From IMG/VR virus record IMGVR_UViG_2713897161_000003: DNA of 14,535 nucleotides. One strand, 5' to 3'. The DNA comes from a virus (Duplodnaviria > Heunggongvirae > Uroviricota > Caudoviricetes). Positions 1-13,117 of this stretch are shown in pieces. The position numbers were made by a program, and so were the translations under genes. The notes below the pieces were generated by a model. The model was not told the origin of the DNA and ran no database searches. It saw only the letters and a list, made by a program, of their open reading frames with translations. Position 1 is the stretch's first letter, and each line of letters begins with the position of its first letter.

Positions 1-135
1 TCGCTCTGACTTTCCAGAACCATACGGACTGCCCGTTGACGGACTTCGGGGGAAAAACGAGTATTTTTAGTCATCCTGTTTACCTCTTTCTCAGGAAGTT
101 TAGTCTCCAGGATTCCCGGGGCGGTTCATAGCGTC

Positions 136-558
136 ATGGCCGAAATAGCCTGCCGAGCCCTTTCCCCCGCAGTGAACGATCCTGGAACCGCCATTGATGT
201 CATTGGCAGAGGTGTACGTATACTTTCCGCTTACGCGCAGAATAAATCTGATGAAATAGAAGTGAAATATCCTTCTGTACATGTTGCACCACTTCAGAAT
301 AACGATCTACTTGAAGACTTTTTCTCACCTGTTGCGCGCGATGGTGCCAGTATGAGGGAAATTCAGATAAGGGTACTTAAAGGACTGTCGATGCTGAGTA
401 AGGGTTGGCCTGGAATTTTTGCTGAAGCCGCACAAACCCTAGCATTTGAAACATTAGAGCATGCTACTCGTGCTGACCATATAGATTCTGACAGATATCT
501 AATAAAATCAATTTATTATAATTTATTTAGTGGCGAAGATTCTAATAAAAAACCATAG
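136..558 (+). CDS. Hypothetical protein, 140 aa; possibly the 3' part of a disrupted or frameshifted longer gene
   Basis: ATG-initiated ORF with no convincing Shine-Dalgarno. In-frame stops lie upstream at 7-9 and 37-39, while a different frame is open from the window edge to 131. Product not recognised. Confidence 0.35.
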   Translation: MAEIACRALSPAVNDPGTAIDVIGRGVRILSAYAQNKSDEIEVKYPSVHVAPLQNNDLLEDFFSPVARDGASMREIQIRVLKGLSMLSKGWPGIFAEAAQTLAFETLEHATRADHIDSDRYLIKSIYYNLFSGEDSNKKP

Positions 559-688
559 TTGCGGAGCAAGCGATACGGTTGTTGGCAAGTCAAGGGCAAA
601 GCATTCGCGTGAGAGTGGGCGTCTGCTTTGTGCCAGAAGCGGACATACGTAACTTATGATACGCATCGCCAATCATCCGTTTCAAACA

Positions 689-1570
689 TCAACGCGGAAA
701 CGTTTTAAGAATGTAATCCCGAACATAGGCGGTTCGGCTGTTATTAGCCGTCCTTTTGTTCCAGACCAGATAAAGATGATTAGTCGGAGCGAGGTCTGCA
801 GGTGTCACTGAAATCAGGCGACCACTTTTCAGGTCATTGTCACAGTGATAATCCGGCAGCACTGTCCACCCGTGGCCGTCACAGACCAAGTCGCGGATAA
901 TACGTAAATCCGGAATGGTGAATGTAGCCTGCATCTCAGGGGCTCTCTGAAACATGGAGGCCCAGAGCGCTCTAATCAGTGGCAACTCTTCGTCATAAGC
1001 AATCAGCGGTAATGAGGCAAGCGTTTCAGCACCAGGTTCTGATCCGATGATCTCTGACATGGCGGGAGCATGAACAAGGAGCATGCGTTCAGTCAGTAGA
1101 TGTGCATAGCCGTACAGACGGTCATCAGGCATAGATGTGGTAACAGCGAGATCGGCGCTCCCGTCATGCAAAAGGGAATAAATACGTTGCTTATTGCCGG
1201 TATGAAAGCGTAGGCGATACCCCTCCTTCATTAGTGGAGCCATTACTGTCCCAAGCCGGGAATGAATAAAATCTGGCGGTCCTGCCAGATTAATTGTTCC
1301 CCCGCGTACAGAGCCTGACCGGAAAGAGGACAGCTTTTCTTCCAGACCATCAATGAAGGGTGAAACTGAGCGGGCAAGCTCATCCGCAGCTTCGGTTGCC
1401 GTCACGCCTCTGGCCTGCCTGATAAACAGACGCTTACCAACCAGAGTCTCAAGAGACTGGATATGCTGTGACGCCGCGGGCTGAGTGATGCCCAGTAGTT
1501 CTGCCGCCTTTGAAAAGGAGCCAGAGCGATAGGCCTCAAGAAACGTTCGCAGATGGCTCAGATGGCTCAT
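689..1570 (-). CDS. LysR-family transcriptional regulator, 293 aa
   Basis: N-terminal helix-turn-helix typical of LysR regulators (FSKAAELLGITQPAASQHIQSLE), followed by a substrate-binding-domain-length C-terminus. Start overlaps the stop of the upstream ChaC-like gene by 4 nt (ATGA). Confidence 0.9.
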   Translation of the reverse strand: MSHLSHLRTFLEAYRSGSFSKAAELLGITQPAASQHIQSLETLVGKRLFIRQARGVTATEAADELARSVSPFIDGLEEKLSSFRSGSVRGGTINLAGPPDFIHSRLGTVMAPLMKEGYRLRFHTGNKQRIYSLLHDGSADLAVTTSMPDDRLYGYAHLLTERMLLVHAPAMSEIIGSEPGAETLASLPLIAYDEELPLIRALWASMFQRAPEMQATFTIPDLRIIRDLVCDGHGWTVLPDYHCDNDLKSGRLISVTPADLAPTNHLYLVWNKRTANNSRTAYVRDYILKTFPR

Positions 1571-2259
1571 AGTGAAGCGCCTCGCTGATGAAGTTTATCG
1601 TTACAGGGAGCCTCATGCAGAGCAAGGGCCAGTTCACTCACGTAATCATCCCGTATTCCCAACGCACCCAGAGTGGCCTGCAGTTTCCATACATAATCTG
1701 CATTCGTGCCAATGTCTCCACGGGCAGATGCGATGCTCAACGCTACGGTCGCTGTAAGATTGTCCTGTTCATAATGCGGATGCAGTCTGTCTGATACGAA
1801 AGCCAGCGCCTGAATTTCCTCACCGTTTCCTAGCGAAACGTCTGCCCAGACCGGACGGTAAAGACCGGTTATCATCTCGCGCGTCCAGACAATTTCCAGC
1901 TCATTAATAAGAGTCGATTCCGGCAGTCTGAACGCAATACCTTCGGTAATTCCACCTTCGTCGAGCGATAACATCCTGCCGGGGACATCAGGAGTCGCTC
2001 GTCCGGATATCAAACGAATGCAGAAACTGCGCTGCCATCCTTTCAGACGGGCCCGTTGCATTTCTTCAATCGCCAGCACGGGATTCCACATCAATGACCC
2101 GTAGGCAAATATCCAGACAGGAGCACCCGTCGGGCGCTCCTCCAGAGTAGAGTTCATTGATGCGCGTATTTTTTCAGCGTCCCAGAGCATATTCGCCGGG
2201 AGCAGCGCTTCATGCACCCTGACAAATGTGCCATTAAGCATATTTTCACGGGTAAGCAT
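1567..2259 (-). CDS. ChaC-like gamma-glutamylcyclotransferase family protein, 230 aa
   Basis: Contains the YGSLMWNP motif and overall resemblance to E. coli ChaC as recalled (VWIFAYGSLMWNP...GRMLSL.EGG...G.AFRLPE). Lies 11 nt downstream of the MFS stop and overlaps the LysR start. Confidence 0.85.
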   Translation of the reverse strand: MLTRENMLNGTFVRVHEALLPANMLWDAEKIRASMNSTLEERPTGAPVWIFAYGSLMWNPVLAIEEMQRARLKGWQRSFCIRLISGRATPDVPGRMLSLDEGGITEGIAFRLPESTLINELEIVWTREMITGLYRPVWADVSLGNGEEIQALAFVSDRLHPHYEQDNLTATVALSIASARGDIGTNADYVWKLQATLGALGIRDDYVSELALALHEAPCNDKLHQRGASL

Positions 2260-2270
2260 ATAACCTCCCT

Positions 2271-4067
2271 TTACTGGCCTACGATTTTAACCTGTTGAAA
2301 TTTACGACTGTGGCTGCGACGGATTTGTGCAAGCAGCAACAGCAGGCCGAGCAGAGAAACAATCGCACCGCTGATACCGGTATACACGATACCGGCGTGG
2401 CTTATAGTAATGCTGCCCAGTACTGATCCCAGCGCTATACCTGAGTTGAAGCCCGCAATATTCAGGCCGGCAGCAACACCATGCGCATGAGGAGCATGTT
2501 GCTCAGCGACACCAATCAGACGGGCCTGCAGTGCCGGCACTGCGGCAAATGTCACCATACCCAGCAGCGCAACCACAATGCCCATGCTCACCGGTGAGGA
2601 TGACAGCAGCCACATACCAAGCACGACAACAACAATGCCGCTAATGATGAGTATATTGGCACGATTAACCCCCATGCTGTCGGTAAGTTTCCCACCAAGA
2701 ATATTACCTACCGCAGCTGTAATACCGTAAACCAGCATAAACAGACTCACCGTTGCTCCGGTAACCCCTGTCACCTGCGTCAGAATAGGTGCGATAAAGG
2801 TGTAAGCCGTAAACGAGCCTGCATACGCCAGCACCGTAACCAGCGCGCCGGCCAGCAACTTACGGTTAAACAGCATGCCGATATTCTGCATTGCTGAGTC
2901 ACTATGTTCACCGGGCACGCTGCGTACGGGATCTTTCATACCGAACAACAGTCCAAGGAATCCGAACGCGCCAAAAGCGGCAATAGCGCCGAGAACTGGA
3001 CGCCATGAGACGACCCCCCNNNNNNNNNNNNNNNNNNNNNNNNNNNNNNNNNNNNNNNNNNNNNNNNNNNNNNNNNNNNNNNNNNNNNNNNNNNNNNNNN
3101 NNNNNNNNNNNNNNNNNNNNNNNNNNNNNNNNNNNNNNNNNNNNNNNNNNNNNNNNNNNNNNNNNNNNNNNNNNNNNNNNNNNNNNNNNNNNNNNNNNNN
3201 NNNNNNNNNNNNNNNNNNNNNNNNNNNNNNNNNNNNNNNNNNNNNNNNNNNNNNNNNNNNNNNNNNNNNNNNNNNNNNNNNNNNNNNNNNNNNNNNNNNN
3301 NNNNNNNNNNNNNNNNNNNNNNNNNNNNNNNNNNNNNNNNNNNNNNNNNNNNNNNNNNNNNNNNNNNNNNNNNNNNNNNNNNNNNNNNNNNNNNNNNNNN
3401 NNNNNNNNNNNNNNNNNNNNNNNNNNNNNNNNNNNNNNNNNNNNNNNNNNNNNNNNNNNNNNNNNNNNNNNNNNNNNNNNNNNNNNNNNNNNNNNNNNNN
3501 NNNNNNNNNNNNNNNNNNNNNNNNNNNNNNNNNNNNNNNNNNNNNNNNNNNNNNNNNNNNNNNNNNNNNNNNNNNNNNNNNNNNNNNNNNNNNNNNNNNN
3601 NNNNNNNNNNNNNNNNNNNNNNNNNNNNNNNNNNNNNNNNNNNNNNNNNNNNNNNNNNNNNNNNNNNNNNNNNNNNNNNNNNNCGCTCTGCCTGCTTTAC
3701 CCGGTCCAGCAAGACGAGCTGCGGTACTGGATGCCGCAGCCAGAAACAGGCCGTGTCCCAGACCAGCAATGAACCGCGCTAACAGGAGCTGAGGTAATGT
3801 GGCTGCAAACGCGGCCGCCAGACTACCGGCAGTAAACACAACGGCAGTTGTAAGCATTACATTTTTCCGGCTCCAGCTTGCTGTCAGCGCAGACAGTACG
3901 GGTGCCGCGAACGTTGCCCCCAGTGCATAGGTTGTAACCGCTGCCCCGGTCTGCTCCACACCCACACACAACCCCTGAGCCATAACGTCTGTCAGCCCAA
4001 TGGGGACAAATTCCGCGAGTCCGAGCGCAAAGGCACTGATAGTAAACACATAAATAACAAATGGCAT
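2271..4067 (-). CDS. MFS-family transporter, interrupted by an assembly gap; true length unknown
   Basis: Hydrophobic multi-helix translation on both sides of the N-run: 128 aa N-terminal part and 249 aa C-terminal part, consistent with a roughly 400-aa 12-TM MFS permease. The X-run in the ORF track is the gap artefact. Confidence 0.8.
   Translation of the reverse strand: MPFVIYVFTISAFALGLAEFVPIGLTDVMAQGLCVGVEQTGAAVTTYALGATFAAPVLSALTASWSRKNVMLTTAVVFTAGSLAAAFAATLPQLLLARFIAGLGHGLFLAAASSTAARLAGPGKAGRAXXXXXXXXXXXXXXXXXXXXXXXXXXXXXXXXXXXXXXXXXXXXXXXXXXXXXXXXXXXXXXXXXXXXXXXXXXXXXXXXXXXXXXXXXXXXXXXXXXXXXXXXXXXXXXXXXXXXXXXXXXXXXXXXXXXXXXXXXXXXXXXXXXXXXXXXXXXXXXXXXXXXXXXXXXXXXXXXXXXXXXXXXXXXXXXXXXXXXXXXXXXXXXXXXXXXXXXXXXXXXXGVVSWRPVLGAIAAFGAFGFLGLLFGMKDPVRSVPGEHSDSAMQNIGMLFNRKLLAGALVTVLAYAGSFTAYTFIAPILTQVTGVTGATVSLFMLVYGITAAVGNILGGKLTDSMGVNRANILIISGIVVVVLGMWLLSSSPVSMGIVVALLGMVTFAAVPALQARLIGVAEQHAPHAHGVAAGLNIAGFNSGIALGSVLGSITISHAGIVYTGISGAIVSLLGLLLLLAQIRRSHSRKFQQVKIVGQ
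3020..3683. other. Assembly gap, run of 664 N
   Basis: Uninterrupted N characters. Length may be an arbitrary scaffold placeholder. Confidence 0.99.
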
Positions 4068-4787
4068 GACTGGCTCCTGATTTAAGTAAGGAGTGCAGTC
4101 TGATTTAGAAAAACAGATAAATAAAATAATGTAAACTTCAGGCGGGATAAAATTATTTATATCTAAGGCAAAGATTCAATATTCCCACAGCACACAGAAG
4201 TTTTCTGTCTTCAGGGAGAGGAGCTTCGAAAGTTCAGACGAAAAATTCCTGCGGCCCCTTTAAGAGTCAGTTGGCCGGGTTTGGTCCGCTCCTCGCTCAA
4301 AGCGGACTAGAAGGTTAGCTTGCGTCGGACTTGGCGTATTTAAAGAAGTGCTGGTGGTGACTGGTTGTTGTGTTCCATTTCTACAGAACAAAATCACAGA
4401 AACTATACCCAATAGTTATATTGAATCAATGATGAGACAGCCTCATATTTATCAGAACTGGTGTACGTCCAATACAGGAGGTTGTCGTGCTGGTTCTCAA
4501 ATGTGCGCTAGCTATTGCGGCTGTAATGGCAATTTATTGTCTTGCTGTTGTTCTTATGGATCGCCTTTCTGATTGATTTTATATTGGCGAGGTGACGGGA
4601 GTTAAGTAGAATTGCTGCGGGTGCTTGAGGCTATCTGCCTCAGGCATGAACACCAAAGGCAGATAGAGAAAAGCCCCAGTTAACATTACGCGTCCTGCAA
4701 GACGCTTAACATTAATCTGAGGCTCAATCTATGAACGGCAAATCTAGGTTAGCCTCTTACGTGCCGAAAGGCAAGGAGAAGCAGGCT

Positions 4788-4943
4788 ATGAAGCAGCAAA
4801 AGGCGATGTTAATCGCCCTGATCGTCATCTGTTTAACCGTTATAGTGACGGTACTGGTAACGAGGAAAGACCTCTGCGAGGTACGAATCCGAACCGACCA
4901 GACGGAGGTCGCTGTCTTCACAGCTTACGAACTTGGGGAGTAA
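4788..4943 (+). CDS. hok: Hok/Gef-family type I toxin, 51 aa; an in-frame upstream ATG at 4731 gives a 70-codon mok-like reading frame
   Basis: Translation MKQQKAMLIALIVICLTVIVTVLVTRKDLCEVRIRTDQTEVAVFTAYELGE closely resembles HokD/HokC as recalled. Shine-Dalgarno AAGGAGAA lies 8 nt upstream of the ATG at 4788. Confidence 0.85.
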   Translation: MKQQKAMLIALIVICLTVIVTVLVTRKDLCEVRIRTDQTEVAVFTAYELGE

Positions 4944-5406
4944 GAGGACCAGCGGGGAGAAATCCCCGCAACCTCTGATGTATTATGCATCCTCAACGCA
5001 GCCACAGTTAACCTGATTGGCGGGTTTACTTCATCTGTAAATATTTTTATAAAAATAATGCCCACGCACAGCATAAAACAAAAAGTATTACAGATAAAAA
5101 AGGAACGTAATGTGCAGATTTGTTGTTTTCCATATTTACTCACCTTAATATGATTAACCCTGATAGGGTTGTTATTTCAGCGGTTTTCAAATGAGATATT
5201 ATGGTGATCTGACAAATTTGCATAACATTAAAATTTAATTTGTTTAACCGCTTTTAATAATAAGCGTTGTTTGTATCCCAGCAATCTGTTGTTTGGTTTT
5301 TATTCCATTAAGGTGGGGGCTTTACACTGGAACCAGTTTATTTATACTTTATACGTCAGCCTGAACAACTGGCATCTGCTGCACTGCGCCATCGAGAGAT
5401 TGAGAA

Positions 5407-6941: not shown

Positions 6942-7878
6942 ACGTCAGGAAAGCAGGGGAGAATGCTGCTAGTTGGGCAACTGGTCTTTCTGCTCCAAAT
7001 TATAACAGAGACCAGTTATAGTTTCGGTGCTGTGTTTTTTTTACAATATTGTGATAACACATTGCTGGCGGGAGTTTTGATATTTCTTGGCAGGGGCTGA
7101 TGATGCGTTATCCTGATGTCGTCAACTCATATAAAATGAGATGAGAGATCATTGCAGGGTGGTTTGTAATTCGCTGTTTAGCGGGACAATATGTTGTCTG
7201 ATACAAGACACCCGACGCCTCAGATTACTATAATAAAGATGAAGCATCCTTTGTATTGACCAACCACCTGTTTAGGCGGTTCTTTTTGGGCTGGTTTATT
7301 GTATGCAAAATGATTATTAAAAAGGTTGTGTTAATAACAAAATCCGAAATAATATGCCTGCATATTTTTATCTTGCTTATATTCTGCATATTGTGCATAG
7401 CAGGCTCATCCCTGCAATCAAAACTGTATGATGAGTATTTTTTGTTTTCCTTTTTTCCAGTCATCTGATGATGACCTGCTTCTTTTTAATCCGGATCGAC
7501 ATCAGTTTTTTAAGATAATTCCTGCGAGTTATATGCATAAATGCCACAAACTCCGCATTTTATGTGGTTGGGAGTTGCCGGGCGCGCAGTGAGTTTGCTA
7601 AGAAAACTCCTGCATGGTGAATCCCCCTGTGCGGTGGGGTGATACCATTAACCTTTTCTGTCGCCGACAGGTATCACGAACATTTTGTTCACCGGGAGGC
7701 ACCCGGCACCATGCACTTCAATAGATTCTCTCCACATTATGGATATTCTTTCAGAATATCCCACGCAGACTTTGTGTAAATGTTAACAAATGTGCGTTTT
7801 ATTTGATCTGATTCGCTGTTTGAGCGTCCAAAACAACGGTATATATAATCCTTTACTATATGACATATGTGAGGAAAA

Positions 7879-12035: not shown

Positions 12036-12542
12036 ATGCGTGGCTGGATGATTAAGGGCAAGCCCGCCAGTGATCGAGCCGTATTGTCTCAGGAACAGGA
12101 CGGCATTAAATCACACACCCACAGCGCCAGCGTATCCAGTACGGATTTGGGGACGAAAACCACATCGTCGTTTGATTACGGCACTAAATCCACGAATAAC
12201 ACTGGTGCGCATACCCATAGTGTTAGCGGTACGGCTGCTTCAGCCGGTGCACATACCCATTCGATGACATTTGTTTCAGGTGGTTCCAGTGGTGCTCCGG
12301 GAAGTGGAGCATCTGATTATTCTAAATACAGTGTTAACACTTCTTCTGCAGGCGCTCATACGCACTCTGTATCGGGTACTGCTGCAAGCGCAGGTGCACA
12401 CGCACATACTGTGGGTATTGGTGCTCATACGCACTCGGTTGCGATTGGCTCACATGGACACACCATCACCGTTAACGCTGCTGGTAACGCGGAAAACACC
12501 GTCAAAAACATCGCATTTAACTATATTGTGAGGCTTGCATAA
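12036..12542 (+). CDS. Side-tail-fibre C-terminal tip fragment (Stf-like), 168 aa, His-rich repeats
   Basis: Multiple stops lie in-frame just upstream, so the ORF is not fused to any fibre shaft. Seven HxH motifs (mostly GAHTHS) sit in Gly/Ser/Thr-rich sequence. Stop overlaps the tfa start (TAATG). Confidence 0.7.
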
Positions 12543-13117
12543 TGGTATTCAGAATGAGTGAACAACCACGGACCATAACAATTTATAATCTGCTGGCCGG
12601 AACTAATGAATTTATTGGTGAAGGTGATGCATATATTCCGCCTCATACAGGTCTGCCAGCAAACAGTACCGATATTGCACCGCCAGATATTCCGGCAGGC
12701 TTCGTGGCTGTTTTCAACAGTGATGAGGCATCGTGGCATCTCGTTGAAGATCATCGGGGTAAAACGGTTTATGACGTGGCTTCCGGCGACGCGTTATTTA
12801 TTTCTGAACTCGGTCCGTTACCGGAAAATGTTACCTGGTTATCGCCGGAAGGGGAGTTTCAGAAGTGGAACGGCACAGCCTGGGTGAAGGATACGGAAGC
12901 AGAAAAACTGTTCCGGATCCGGGAGGCGGAAGAAACAAAAAACAACCTGATGCAGGTAGCCAGTGAGCATATTGCGCCGCTTCAGGATGCTGCAGATCTG
13001 GAAATTGCAACGGAGGAAGAAATCTCGTTGCTGGAAGCATGGAAAAAGTATCGGGTATTGCTGAACCGTGTTGATACGTCAACTTCACAGGATATTGAAT
13101 GGCCAGCACTGCCGTAG
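12542..13117 (+). CDS. tfa: Tail fibre assembly protein, 191 aa
   Basis: Resembles TfaR/TfaQ of E. coli cryptic prophages as recalled ([73 protein letters not shown]). Translationally coupled to the fibre-tip ORF. Confidence 0.9.

What the first reader, a model, noticed from the sequence alone, without database searches (positions are those of the whole stretch)
4560..5010. hok-type type I toxin locus at the left edge of the prophage remnant, with leader hairpin and possible 5'-3' pairing
Besides the Hok ORF and its in-frame 70-codon mok-like extension, the leader carries a perfect 10-bp inverted repeat (CTATCTGCCT 4631-4640 / AGGCAGATAG 4657-4666). The segment GCTGCG...TTGAGG (4614-4630) is partly complementary to CCTCAACGCAGC (4991-5002) beyond the hok stop. 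That arrangement recalls the long-range pairing that keeps full-length hok mRNA translationally silent. An antisense Sok-like RNA would be expected on the minus strand over the mok start at about 4690-4760; a candidate minus-strand promoter reads TTGCCT-17 nt-TAACCT there. A functional toxin locus would help explain why this remnant persists.
Basis: partly seen in the sequence, partly recalled or inferred. Interest (0 to 1): 0.5.

Follow-up and report, generated by a model that had tools for sequence, protein, structure and literature searches.

The report
Intact hok/sok toxin locus in prophage

Summary
Window 4584-5003 is a complete hok/mok/sok type I toxin-antitoxin cassette of the hokD/hokW subfamily. 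The window is E. coli chromosome, and PGAP already annotates the ORF as HokD. The exact 51-aa protein is on 691 public contigs. Rfam's 'sok' model hits 4619-4793 at 111.7 bits, and Hok matches PF01848 at 75.8 bits.

The Sok -10 (TAACCT) is identical to the hexamer mutated experimentally in sokW.

The 5'-3' pairing is real and covaries across six genera, but its register is 4619-4630 with 4991-5003. It exists only because of a lineage-specific C-to-G change at 5001, which also weakens the canonical lock by about 4 kcal/mol.

The locus is not at a true prophage edge. It sits at a fixed position before the DUF1367/DUF1364/Q genes, next to a variable cargo slot. Expression and toxicity were not testable here.

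Verdict: already known; low interest.

The parts
4584..4612 (+). hok promoter: -35 TTGGCG (4584-4589), 17-nt spacer, -10 TAGAAT (4607-4612). It predicts a transcription start at about G4619.
   Evidence: Promoter scan, 9 of 12 matches. The -10 and the spacing to GGGTGCTTGAGG are conserved in hokW, Rac-442/2, Tritos, M8 and AST215. The start site itself is inferred.
4619..5003 (+). Predicted full-length hok mRNA body, from the 5' end to the end of fbi. The true 3' end is unknown.
   Evidence: The MFE fold is -153.6 kcal/mol, z = -6.9, with the 5' and 3' ends paired. The Rfam RF01794 hit begins exactly at 4619.
4619..4630 (+). tac (translational activator) box GGGTGCTTGAGG. It pairs alternately with fbi, with ucb, or with the adjacent metastable partner.
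   Evidence: It is nearly invariant in 31 homologues, and the changes it does show are compensated in fbi.
4621..4647 (+). Metastable 5' hairpin of the nascent transcript (4621-4631 pairs with 4637-4647, 11 bp).
   Evidence: Fold of the first 42 nt gives -19.8 kcal/mol. The helix is 96.2% paired with three pairs changed on both sides; 0 of 500 shuffles reach this.
4631..4666 (+).
4671..4677 (+). ucb (upstream complementary box / anti-SD) AAGCCCC. It pairs with tac in the open form (4619-4621/4675-4677 and 4623-4626/4671-4674).
   Evidence: Fold of the first 82 nt. The helix is 99.5% paired but invariant, so conservation supports it and covariation cannot.
4669..4739 (-). Predicted Sok antisense RNA, 71 nt: a 14-nt single-stranded 5' tail, a long hairpin and a UUUU end. 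It overlaps the mok SD and start codon.
   Evidence: The position corresponds to the annotated SokW RNA of VT2-Sakai. The fold is -30 to -33 kcal/mol, z = -6.4. Sok differs from SokW at 7 of 71 positions, 6 of them in the 5' tail.
4746..4774 (-). Sok promoter: -35 TTGCCT (4774-4769), 17-nt spacer, -10 TAACCT (4751-4746).
   Evidence: Both hexamers are identical to sokW. Primers YO-421/422 of PMC8621323 make the sokW 'pro-less' mutant by changing exactly this TAGGTTA. The generic promoter scan misses it, because TAACCT matches only 3 of 6 consensus positions.
4719..4756 (+). mok Shine-Dalgarno GAGG (4719-4722), with the SD/dcb stem (4719-4724 / 4751-4756) enclosing the Sok-target hairpin (4726-4731 / 4745-4750).
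   Evidence: The GAGGC/GCCUC core is invariant in 31 sequences. The Rfam consensus structure matches it.
4731..4943 (+). mok ORF: 70 codons, in frame with hok, so Mok is an N-terminally extended Hok.
   Evidence: The arrangement is the same as in mokW.
4788..4943 (+). hok ORF, 51 aa: MKQQKAMLIALIVICLTVIVTVLVTRKDLCEVRIRTDQTEVAVFTAYELGE.
   Evidence: PF01848 at 75.8 bits and phrog_251 at 106 bits. It shares 47 of 51 residues with K-12-type HokD and 44 of 51 with HokW. The exact sequence is named HokD on 691 contigs.
4926..4931 (+). TACGAA (Tyr47-Glu48): a TadA-type A-to-I recoding motif (Tyr to Cys).
   Evidence: The hexamer is invariant in all 31 homologues although its flanks vary. Editing of hokC, hokD and hokE at this Tyr is reported in PMC12214031 and in 10.1101/2025.08.07.668861. 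Editing at this locus is inferred, not shown.
4952..4969 (+). G+C-rich 3' hairpin (GCGGGGA / TCCCCGC), the likely stop point for 3' trimming that protects the truncated mRNA.
   Evidence: 96.8% paired, two compensatory pairs. The role is assigned by analogy to R1 (PMC9841398).
4991..5003 (+). fbi (fold-back inhibitory) box CCTCAA-C-GCAGCC. G5001 replaces the C found in all 30 other aligned homologues and creates a G.G mismatch with G4621.
5010..5033 (+). Weakened remnant of the intrinsic terminator that follows fbi in Tritos and Rac-442/2 (CCCGCTTCGGCGGGTTTTTT there).
   Evidence: -8.2 kcal/mol with a broken U-tract, against -14.1 in Tritos. hokW lacks this terminator altogether, so it is not essential.

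Best explanation
The region is a complete hok/mok/sok type I toxin-antitoxin cassette of the hokD/hokW (lambdoid-prophage) subfamily. It most likely works as the R1 and hokW systems do.

Proposed mechanism:
1. A constitutive promoter (-10 at 4607-4612) makes a roughly 385-nt or longer hok mRNA starting near G4619.
2. During transcription, the 5' tac box is held in a metastable hairpin (4621-4647).
3. In the finished RNA, tac pairs with the 3' fbi box (4991-5003). This closes the molecule, so mok and hok are not translated and Sok cannot bind.
4. Slow 3' trimming back to the hairpin at 4952-4969 removes fbi.
5. tac then pairs with ucb (4671-4677). That frees the mok Shine-Dalgarno (4719-4722) and exposes the Sok target around the mok start.
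6. The unstable 71-nt Sok RNA (4739 to 4669, minus strand, from TTGCCT-17-TAACCT) binds there through its 14-nt 5' tail, and the duplex is cut by RNase III.
7. If Sok falls, mok is translated and hok translation is coupled to it. The 51-aa Hok inserts into the inner membrane and kills or arrests the cell.
8. A-to-I editing of the invariant TACG (Tyr47 to Cys) may further tune toxicity.

Shown here: the identity of every sequence element, their conservation and covariation, and the thermodynamic preference for the closed state.

Inferred from homology and literature: transcription, processing, Sok action, toxicity and editing.
For: Identity:
- Rfam RF01794 covers 4619-4793 at 111.7 bits, E = 3e-25, over the full model.
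- PF01848 scores 75.8 bits and phrog_251 'MokW-like host killing' 106 bits.
- PGAP annotates hokD at this place in 100%-identical genomes.
- The exact protein is named HokD on 691 contigs.

Closest characterised relative: hokW-sokW of Sp5, 91.4% DNA identity, with mokW, hokW and sokW annotated at homologous coordinates. PMC8621323 shows that HokW is toxic and that sokW, expressed from its own promoter, neutralises it in an RNase III- and Hfq-dependent way. The mutated sokW -10 is identical here.

Structure:
- The full-length fold closes the 5' end on the 3' end, z = -6.9.
- The distal tac/fbi helix is 98.9% paired with a U-A to C-G swap in 11 sequences; 0 of 500 shuffles reach this.
- The proximal half covaries too: GAGA/UCUC in Kluyvera, GAAG/CUUC in Citrobacter, and G.U variants elsewhere.
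- The metastable hairpin is 96% paired with 3 compensatory pairs.
- The tac-stem, 10-bp hairpin, SD/dcb stem and 3' hairpin are all conserved.
- The closed state is favoured over the tac/ucb open state by about 6.7 kcal/mol in the full-length RNA.

No inactivating lesion was found. Both promoters, both ORFs and all boxes are intact, in contrast to the broken loci seen among relatives: L005/L020 (leader replaced), L014 (IS insertion), L036 (frameshift).
Against: - No expression, processing or toxicity data exist for this allele.
- G5001 puts a G.G mismatch into tac/fbi. The duplex is the weakest of the 31 compared (-15.3 against -19.4 kcal/mol in close relatives), and the closed full-length fold loses 4.1 kcal/mol.
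- The terminator downstream of fbi is degraded in this sub-lineage.
- Chromosomal hok loci tested earlier (hokA, hokB, hokC) did not give post-segregational killing, according to the literature summarised in 10.1101/2025.08.07.668861.
- The genome-encoded Tyr47 form may be weakly toxic unless edited, and K-12 hokD mRNA is only 6% edited (PMC12214031).
- MFE folds did not reproduce the textbook ucb/mok-SD pairing in the full-length form. They paired ucb with 4934-4938 instead.
Confidence: 0.85

Rival explanations
1. The cassette is a recently silenced or eroding relic. It keeps the family's sequence signature but no longer behaves as a regulated toxin-antitoxin pair: it is either leaky and attenuated, or simply not toxic.
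For: - The fbi carries a lineage-specific mismatch and gives the weakest tac/fbi duplex of 31.
- The terminator after fbi has decayed.
- Many chromosomal hok loci are inactivated, with examples, in K-12 hokD (PMC6379469) and in the literature summary.
- Tyr47 needs editing to supply the second periplasmic cysteine.
Against: - Both promoters, the mok and hok ORFs and every complementary box are intact.
- The closed state is still favoured by about 6.7 kcal/mol.
- The functional hokW has no terminator at that position either.
- The Tyr codon is the majority state in the family and is invariant in all 31 homologues.
Confidence: 0.2
2. The fold-back pairing uses the first reader's register: GCTGCG 4614-4619 with CGCAGC 4997-5002, looping out GGTGC. 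This would require a transcript that starts at or before 4614.
For: The six pairs are perfect in this allele. If the RNA did start at 4614, this register (-152.4 kcal/mol) would be energetically equivalent to the canonical one (-152.7).
Against: - Position 4614 is only 2 nt after the -10 hexamer.
- The register is 57% paired across 31 homologues, equal to the shuffle mean, with no covariation.
- It exists only because of the private C-to-G change at 5001.
- The Rfam model and the homologues all begin at GGG (4619).
Confidence: 0.03
3. The biological role is addiction: the toxin locus stabilises the defective prophage and explains why the remnant persists. The alternatives are a role in lysis timing on induction, as for hokW, or in phage exclusion.
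For: - Hok genes are about four times enriched in prophages (10.1101/2025.08.07.668861).
- The module is carried by 1,711 of 5,426 E. coli genomes for the upstream block, and by 384 for the full 801-nt query.
Against: - Strain Z1322HEC0009 keeps the upstream block but has lost hok (L052).
- K-12 has only five hok loci, hokA to hokE. Its hokD lies in the Qin prophage, so K-12 Rac appears to lack the cassette.
- The DNA immediately to the left is swapped freely between strains.
- The only tested prophage homologue, hokW, promoted lysis and phage release after induction; deleting it did not affect growth under normal conditions, and effects on prophage retention were not reported.
Confidence: 0.15

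Closest known systems
hokW-sokW of Stx2 prophage Sp5 / VT2-Sakai (AP000422.1; Takada et al. 2021, PMC8621323)
   Same: - 91.4% DNA identity over window 4599-5003.
- Same layout: the same tac, leader hairpin, ucb, SD/dcb and fbi boxes, and an in-frame 70-codon mok.
- A 71-nt Sok at the homologous position, with identical -35 and -10 hexamers and an identical terminator hairpin.
- Both sit in lambdoid prophages.
   Different: - 7 of 51 Hok residues differ.
- 6 of the first 10 nt of the Sok 5' tail differ, and with them the first mok codons, so cross-neutralisation is doubtful (inference).
- The window has G5001 in fbi where hokW has C.
- hokW lies at a different place in its phage genome and has no terminator after fbi.
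hok/sok of plasmid R1, the textbook system (regulation reviewed in PMC9841398)
   Same: - The same logic and the same named elements: tac/fbi closure, metastable hairpin, tac/ucb open form, mok SD/dcb, translational coupling of hok to mok, Sok antisense over the mok start, and a 3' protective hairpin.
- The Sok promoter sits at the equivalent position, in the dcb-to-hok-SD interval.
   Different: - The protein is only distantly similar: HokW is 44% identical to R1 Hok.
- The locus is chromosomal and prophage-borne, not plasmid-borne.
- tac/fbi has a bulged C and, in this allele, one mismatch.
- The second periplasmic cysteine is replaced by an editable Tyr codon.
E. coli K-12 hokD (relF) in the Qin prophage
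   Same: 47 of 51 residues are identical to the K-12-type HokD sequence. The 3' hairpin, fbi box and terminator belong to the same type (L005). PGAP gives both the same name.
   Different: K-12-type hokD has lost its promoter, tac, mok start and sok to the relBE insertion (the leader is replaced in L005; PMC6379469). The window has the complete ancestral arrangement.
mok/hok of 'Escherichia phage Rac' from E. coli 442/2 (MN652886.1)
   Same: - The same prophage family and the same slot: hok lies between the replication/nin genes and DUF1367 (irsA), DUF1364 (ybcO) and Q.
- 91% DNA identity.
   Different: - In 442/2, mok is out of frame with hok because of a 1-nt insertion, rem follows hok, and small phage ORFs lie to the left.
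- The window has no rem, and metabolic cargo (MFS, GGCT, LysR and others) lies to the left.

Membership tests
[quoted passage not shown] | Small Hok/Gef-family membrane toxin (PF01848) with the conserved residues | tested here: met
   PF01848 scores 75.8 bits against a cutoff of 22, matching profile positions 1-42 of 42. C15, T17, L29, C30, E31 and E40 are present, corresponding to the conserved positions listed in 10.1101/2025.08.07.668861.
[quoted passage not shown] | hok-type mRNA leader (covariance model) | tested here: met
   RF01794 scores 111.7 bits against a gathering score of 59, over model positions 1-157 of 157 at 4619-4793. The model, although named 'sok', matches the hok-sense strand, so it tests the leader and not the antisense gene.
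[quoted passage not shown] | Overlapping mok reading frame with its own SD upstream of hok | tested here: met
   The 70-codon ORF is 4731-4943, with GAGG 8 nt upstream of its start. The SD is invariant in 31 homologues.
[quoted passage not shown] | 5' tac / 3' fbi long-range pairing that closes the full-length mRNA | tested here: met
   Present in the MFE fold. The distal helix is 98.9% paired with compensatory changes. Cognate duplexes range from -15 to -23 kcal/mol in all 31 sequences. This allele has one G.G mismatch and the weakest duplex.
[quoted passage not shown] | Alternative tac pairings: the metastable 5' hairpin and the tac/ucb stem of the open form | tested here: met
   Folds of the nascent 42-nt and 82-nt RNAs show both. 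The metastable hairpin is 96.2% paired with 3 compensatory pairs. The tac/ucb stem is 99.5% paired but invariant.
[quoted passage not shown] | mok SD sequestered by ucb in the closed form, and paired with dcb in the open form | tested here: inconclusive
   The SD/dcb core GAGGC/GCCUC is present and invariant. The ucb/SD pairing (AGCC 4672-4675 with GGCT 4721-4724) appeared only in the fold of the truncated RNA, not in the full-length MFE. Neither pairing varies, so covariation cannot decide.
[quoted passage not shown] | cis-encoded antisense Sok gene over the mok start, with its own promoter and terminator | tested here: met
   The promoter hexamers and the hairpin plus U-run are identical to the annotated and mutationally tested sokW. 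The fold is -30 to -33 kcal/mol, z = -6.4. Only the sequence features were tested; transcription was not.
[quoted passage not shown] | 3' exonucleolytic processing to a truncated, translatable mRNA, and RNase III cleavage of the Sok-hok duplex | not testable with these tools
   The 3' protective hairpin 4952-4969 is present and conserved. The processing itself needs Northern blots or RACE.
[quoted passage not shown] | Hok kills or arrests the cell, and Sok neutralises it | not testable with these tools
   Shown for hokW-sokW (PMC8621323), not for this allele.
hokD/hokW prophage subfamily | Close sequence relationship to HokD/HokW, and location in the early-right region of a lambdoid prophage | tested here: met
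   47 of 51 residues match K-12-type HokD and 44 of 51 match HokW. In the Rac variants and mEp460, the locus sits immediately upstream of rem and/or the DUF1367/DUF1364/Q genes.

The most novel reading that the evidence does not exclude
The hok/sok cassette may not travel alone. It is fused to a conserved, unannotated block of about 300 nt (4284-4583), found in 1,711 of 5,426 E. coli genomes. That block encodes a 29-codon hydrophobic peptide (4487-4576) behind a strong Shine-Dalgarno. The combined module forms the fixed right-hand border of a slot in Rac-like prophages where cargo is exchanged: metabolic genes here, and a NACHT-domain protein, an integrase block or a DUF4209 protein elsewhere. 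The most novel reading not excluded is that the small peptide is a functional partner of Hok, or a second membrane-active product, and that the module helps retain or police whatever cargo is inserted next to it.
Probability: 0.1. Interest if true: 0.45.

Novelty: already known. Interest (0 to 1): 0.12.

Why it matters
It matters little for discovery. The gene is already named in RefSeq, the family is the textbook type I toxin-antitoxin system, and a 91%-identical prophage homologue has been characterised experimentally.

Three modest points are useful:
1. This allele is an intact, ancestral-type version of the hokD that is truncated in K-12. It would therefore be a better model than K-12 hokD for studying a chromosomal, prophage-borne hok/sok.
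2. A natural single-base variant in fbi (G5001), shared by a sub-lineage, offers a ready-made test of how much fold-back stability the system needs.
3. The Rfam family called 'sok' actually models the hok-sense leader. Annotators should keep this in mind when assigning strand.

Tried and rejected
Counted on 31 homologues and rejected: 57% paired, equal to the shuffle mean.
- **Weak terminator after fbi as a sign of decay.** Rejected as an argument, because the functional hokW has no terminator there.
- **Generic sigma-70 scan for the Sok promoter.** It does not find it, since TAACCT matches only 3 of 6 positions. I relied on identity to the mutated sokW promoter instead.
- **A second type I pair upstream.** The idea was that the 29-codon ORF is opposed by an antisense RNA from the promoter-like site TTAACT-18-TAAAAT (4605-4576). 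That -10 is not conserved (ATTTTA becomes ATTTCA in L049, L050 and L053), and the region's fold is unremarkable (z = -1.4), so I dropped it.
- **The search for homologous proteins on the 29-aa peptide.** Pfam, NCBIfam and PHROGs gave nothing, and a literature search for the peptide string gave nothing.
- **One structure string one character short.** It produced an error; I regenerated it by script.
- **Column-based pair counting for the proximal tac/fbi half.** Unreliable, because Photorhabdus lacks the bulge and sits one column out of register in A2. I used per-sequence duplex folding instead.
- **Textbook ucb/mok-SD pairing in the full-length form.** MFE folding did not reproduce it, so it is left as inconclusive.
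Full report
**What the window is.** The 801 bases around the finding are 100% identical to several complete E. coli chromosomes, and the ORF there is annotated 'type I toxin-antitoxin system toxin HokD'. In strain ET881 the neighbourhood is a Rac-like lambdoid prophage. The gene order is ydaS, ydaT, DUF977; then a block of BCCT transporter, DUF2254, LysR, gamma-glutamylcyclotransferase and MFS transporter genes; then hokD; then DUF1367, DUF1364, DUF1133 (Q-like), TolA-like, essD, rrrD, rzoD, trkG, tail-fibre genes, tfaR and pinR. The 'left edge of the prophage remnant' therefore reflects where the window begins. Phage genes continue beyond the cargo block.

**Checking the observation.**
- The Hok ORF (4788-4943, 51 aa) and the in-frame 70-codon ORF (4731-4943) are present.
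- The perfect 10-bp inverted repeat 4631-4640 / 4657-4666 is present. A 10-bp perfect repeat with a 3-40 nt loop occurs in 1% of 1000 dinucleotide-preserving shuffles of 4560-5010.
- The quoted strings at 4614-4630 and 4991-5002 are exact.
- The minus-strand TTGCCT-17-TAACCT is at 4774-4746.

**Family assignment.**
- Rfam RF01794 ('sok') matches 4619-4793 on the plus strand at 111.7 bits (gathering score 59), over the whole model. The model starts at the hok mRNA 5' end (GGGUGCUUGAGG) and runs to the hok start codon. It therefore models the hok-sense leader and not the antisense RNA.
- Hok matches PF01848 end to end at 75.8 bits and phrog_251 'MokW-like host killing'.
- The exact protein is catalogued as HokD on 691 contigs.

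**Closest characterised relative.** The locus is 91.4% identical over 4599-5003 to hokW-sokW of Stx2 phage VT2-Sakai/Sp5. That record annotates mokW (in frame with hokW), hokW and a 71-nt SokW RNA. Transferred through the gap-free alignment, SokW corresponds to window 4739 to 4669 on the minus strand.

Takada et al. (PMC8621323) showed the following:
- HokW is toxic.
- sokW, expressed from its own promoter, neutralises it, and this depends partly on RNase III and Hfq.
- The locus speeds lysis and doubles phage release after mitomycin C.

Their 'pro-less' mutant primers change TAGGTTA, which is the minus-strand -10 TAACCT. That hexamer and the -35 TTGCCT are identical in the window. The generic scan misses it because TAACCT matches only 3 of 6 consensus positions.

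The predicted Sok has a 14-nt single-stranded 5' tail, a long hairpin (-30 kcal/mol; z = -6.4 for a slightly longer stretch) and a U-run. It differs from SokW at 7 positions, 6 of them within the first 10 nt of the tail. The corresponding stretch, just after the mok start codon, is also the most variable part of the leader across homologues. I infer that this sets the specificity of each Sok for its own mRNA.

**The hok mRNA and its alternative folds.** A promoter (TTGGCG-17-TAGAAT, 4584-4612) places the start near G4619, which is where the Rfam model and all homologues begin. Folding gives the following:
- The first 42 nt form the metastable hairpin 4621-4631 / 4637-4647.
- The first 82 nt form the tac-stem, in which 4619-4621 and 4623-4626 pair with 4671-4677 below the 10-bp hairpin.
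- The whole RNA, 4619-5005, folds to -153.6 kcal/mol (z = -6.9). In that fold the 5' end is closed on the 3' end: 4619-4620 with 5002-5003, 4622-4624 with 4998-5000, and 4625-4629 with 4992-4996.

These are the named states of the R1 model: tac/fbi, metastable hairpin, tac/ucb and mok-SD/dcb (PMC9841398).

**Comparative test.** I aligned the window with 30 non-identical hok loci from Escherichia, Kluyvera, Citrobacter, Pseudocitrobacter, Pantoea and Photorhabdus, together with hokW and a Rac phage record (alignment A2).

| Helix | Window coordinates | Paired | Covariation |
|---|---|---|---|
| Distal tac/fbi | 4619-4624 / 4998-5003 | 98.9% | U-A to C-G in 11 sequences; 0 of 500 shuffles as high |
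| Metastable hairpin | 4621-4631 / 4637-4647 | 96.2% | 3 pairs changed on both sides |
| tac/ucb stem | 4619-4626 / 4671-4677 | 99.5% | invariant |
| 10-bp hairpin | 4631-4640 / 4657-4666 | 93.2% | 3 compensatory pairs |
| 3' hairpin | 4952-4958 / 4963-4969 | 96.8% | 2 compensatory pairs |

- The SD/dcb core (GAGGC/GCCUC) is invariant.
- The proximal half of tac/fbi also covaries: GAGA/UCUC in Kluyvera, GAAG/CUUC in Citrobacter, and G.U variants elsewhere. Every cognate tac/fbi pair forms a duplex of -15 to -23 kcal/mol.

**A private variant in fbi.** All 30 other aligned sequences read GC(A/G)CCC at the end of fbi, and the window reads GCAGCC.
- G5001 opposes G4621, so the duplex is the weakest of the 31: -15.3 against -19.4 kcal/mol in close relatives.
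- The closed full-length fold loses 4.1 kcal/mol.
- The closed state is still favoured over the open tac/ucb state by about 6.7 kcal/mol, compared with about 10 kcal/mol when C is restored.
- The variant is shared with strain AST215 but not with M8, Tritos, Rac-442/2 or hokW.
- The sub-lineage also has a weakened terminator after fbi (-8.2 against -14.1 kcal/mol, with a broken U-tract). hokW has no terminator there at all, so I do not count this as decay.

**Other layers.** TACGAA (Tyr47-Glu48, 4926-4931) is invariant at the nucleotide level in all 31 sequences. This is the TadA-type Tyr-to-Cys recoding site reported for hokC, hokD and hokE. K-12 hokD is only 6% edited, and the cysteine at this position is important for toxicity in HokB. 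K-12's own hokD lost its leader, mok start and sok when relBE was inserted (L005). The window therefore carries the intact ancestral arrangement.

**Context and the persistence idea.** In a Rac phage record and in several E. coli strains, hok sits directly before rem and/or the DUF1367-DUF1364-Q genes. The DNA to its left differs from strain to strain:
- metabolic cargo here;
- a NACHT-domain protein in M8;
- an integrase block in AST215;
- a DUF4209 protein in 118UI;
- an IS1 insertion in Combat11I9.

One strain (Z1322HEC0009) keeps the conserved upstream block but has lost hok. These facts do not support a strong addiction role. The only tested prophage homologue acts on lysis timing.

**Verdict.** This is a canonical, already annotated hok/mok/sok cassette with all sequence-level defining features met. 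Expression, processing and toxicity remain untested for this allele. I put about 0.85 on 'canonical mechanism, as described', and about 0.65 on the locus being fully functional today. Novelty: already known. Interest: low.

Noticed in passing
window 4487-4576 (+): A 29-codon hydrophobic ORF (MLVLKCALAIAAVMAIYCLAVVLMDRLSD) with a GTG start 6 nt after AGGAGG, ending 8 nt before the hok -35. It stays open with the same start, stop and length in nine copies down to 86% DNA identity, and its amino-acid changes are conservative. In phage HannyBb it has diverged about 8%, against about 28% for the 47 nt upstream. It has no Pfam, NCBIfam or PHROG match. It is deposited once as a 'hypothetical protein' (GCZ25347.1; 146 contigs) and is not annotated in RefSeq genomes.
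   Followed up: partly
window 4284-4583: A conserved block of about 300 nt immediately upstream of the hok promoter travels with hok in Rac variants and in phages Tritos, Evi, mEp460_ev081 and HannyBb. It is present in 1,711 of 5,426 complete E. coli genomes and never carries an annotated feature there.
   Followed up: partly
window 1-4283, compared with L045, L046, L048 and L053: The DNA left of the hok module is a variable cargo slot inside Rac-like prophages. It holds DUF2254, LysR, gamma-glutamylcyclotransferase and MFS genes here (BCCT lies further left in ET881 and Combat11I9), a 2.2-kb NACHT-domain gene in strain M8, a hypothetical-plus-integrase block in AST215, a DUF4209 protein in 118UI, and an IS1 at about 4348-4357 in Combat11I9.
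   Followed up: partly
L052 (E. coli Z1322HEC0009), corresponding to window ~4440-4583: This strain keeps the upstream block, including the small ORF, but homology stops right where the hok promoter would begin. A DUF1971 gene follows, so hok/sok has been deleted.
   Followed up: partly
window 4726-4745 and A2 columns ~113-136: The stretch just after the mok start codon, which is complementary to the Sok 5' tail, is the most variable part of the otherwise highly conserved leader. Sok and SokW differ at 6 of their first 10 nt. This is consistent with diversification that limits cross-talk between co-resident hok/sok copies, but I did not test that.
   Followed up: partly
window 4619-4793: The Rfam family RF01794, named 'sok antitoxin', matches the hok-sense strand from the hok mRNA 5' end to the hok start codon. 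A hit therefore marks the hok leader. The real Sok gene lies on the opposite strand, inside the hit.
   Followed up: yes
window 2271-4067 (-), compared with L001: The MFS transporter ORF is intact here (598 aa). In the otherwise near-identical strain ET881 it is about 600 bp shorter and annotated as two overlapping fragments.
   Followed up: no
window 7582-7768 (+): An Rfam hit to the sRNA family STnc100 (86.6 bits against a gathering score of 47), downstream of the Q-like gene.
   Followed up: no
window 12885-13083 (+): A full-length Rfam hit to IS009 (220.9 bits), lying inside the tail-fibre assembly gene tfaR (12542-13117).
   Followed up: no
L016 (Acinetobacter idrijaensis, 275-bp contig) and L017 (Xanthomonas pisi, 431-bp contig): Very short contigs in non-enterobacterial assemblies encode Hok at 93-95% identity to the E. 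coli protein. This is most simply explained as contamination of those assemblies.
   Followed up: no
L002, L008 and L009, upstream of hok: In the E. albertii, E. coli and Shigella copies, homology to the window begins only about 20 nt before the small ORF's stop codon (…ATGGATCACCTTTCTGATTGA). The last codons of that ORF therefore always travel with the hok promoter even when the rest is replaced.
   Followed up: no
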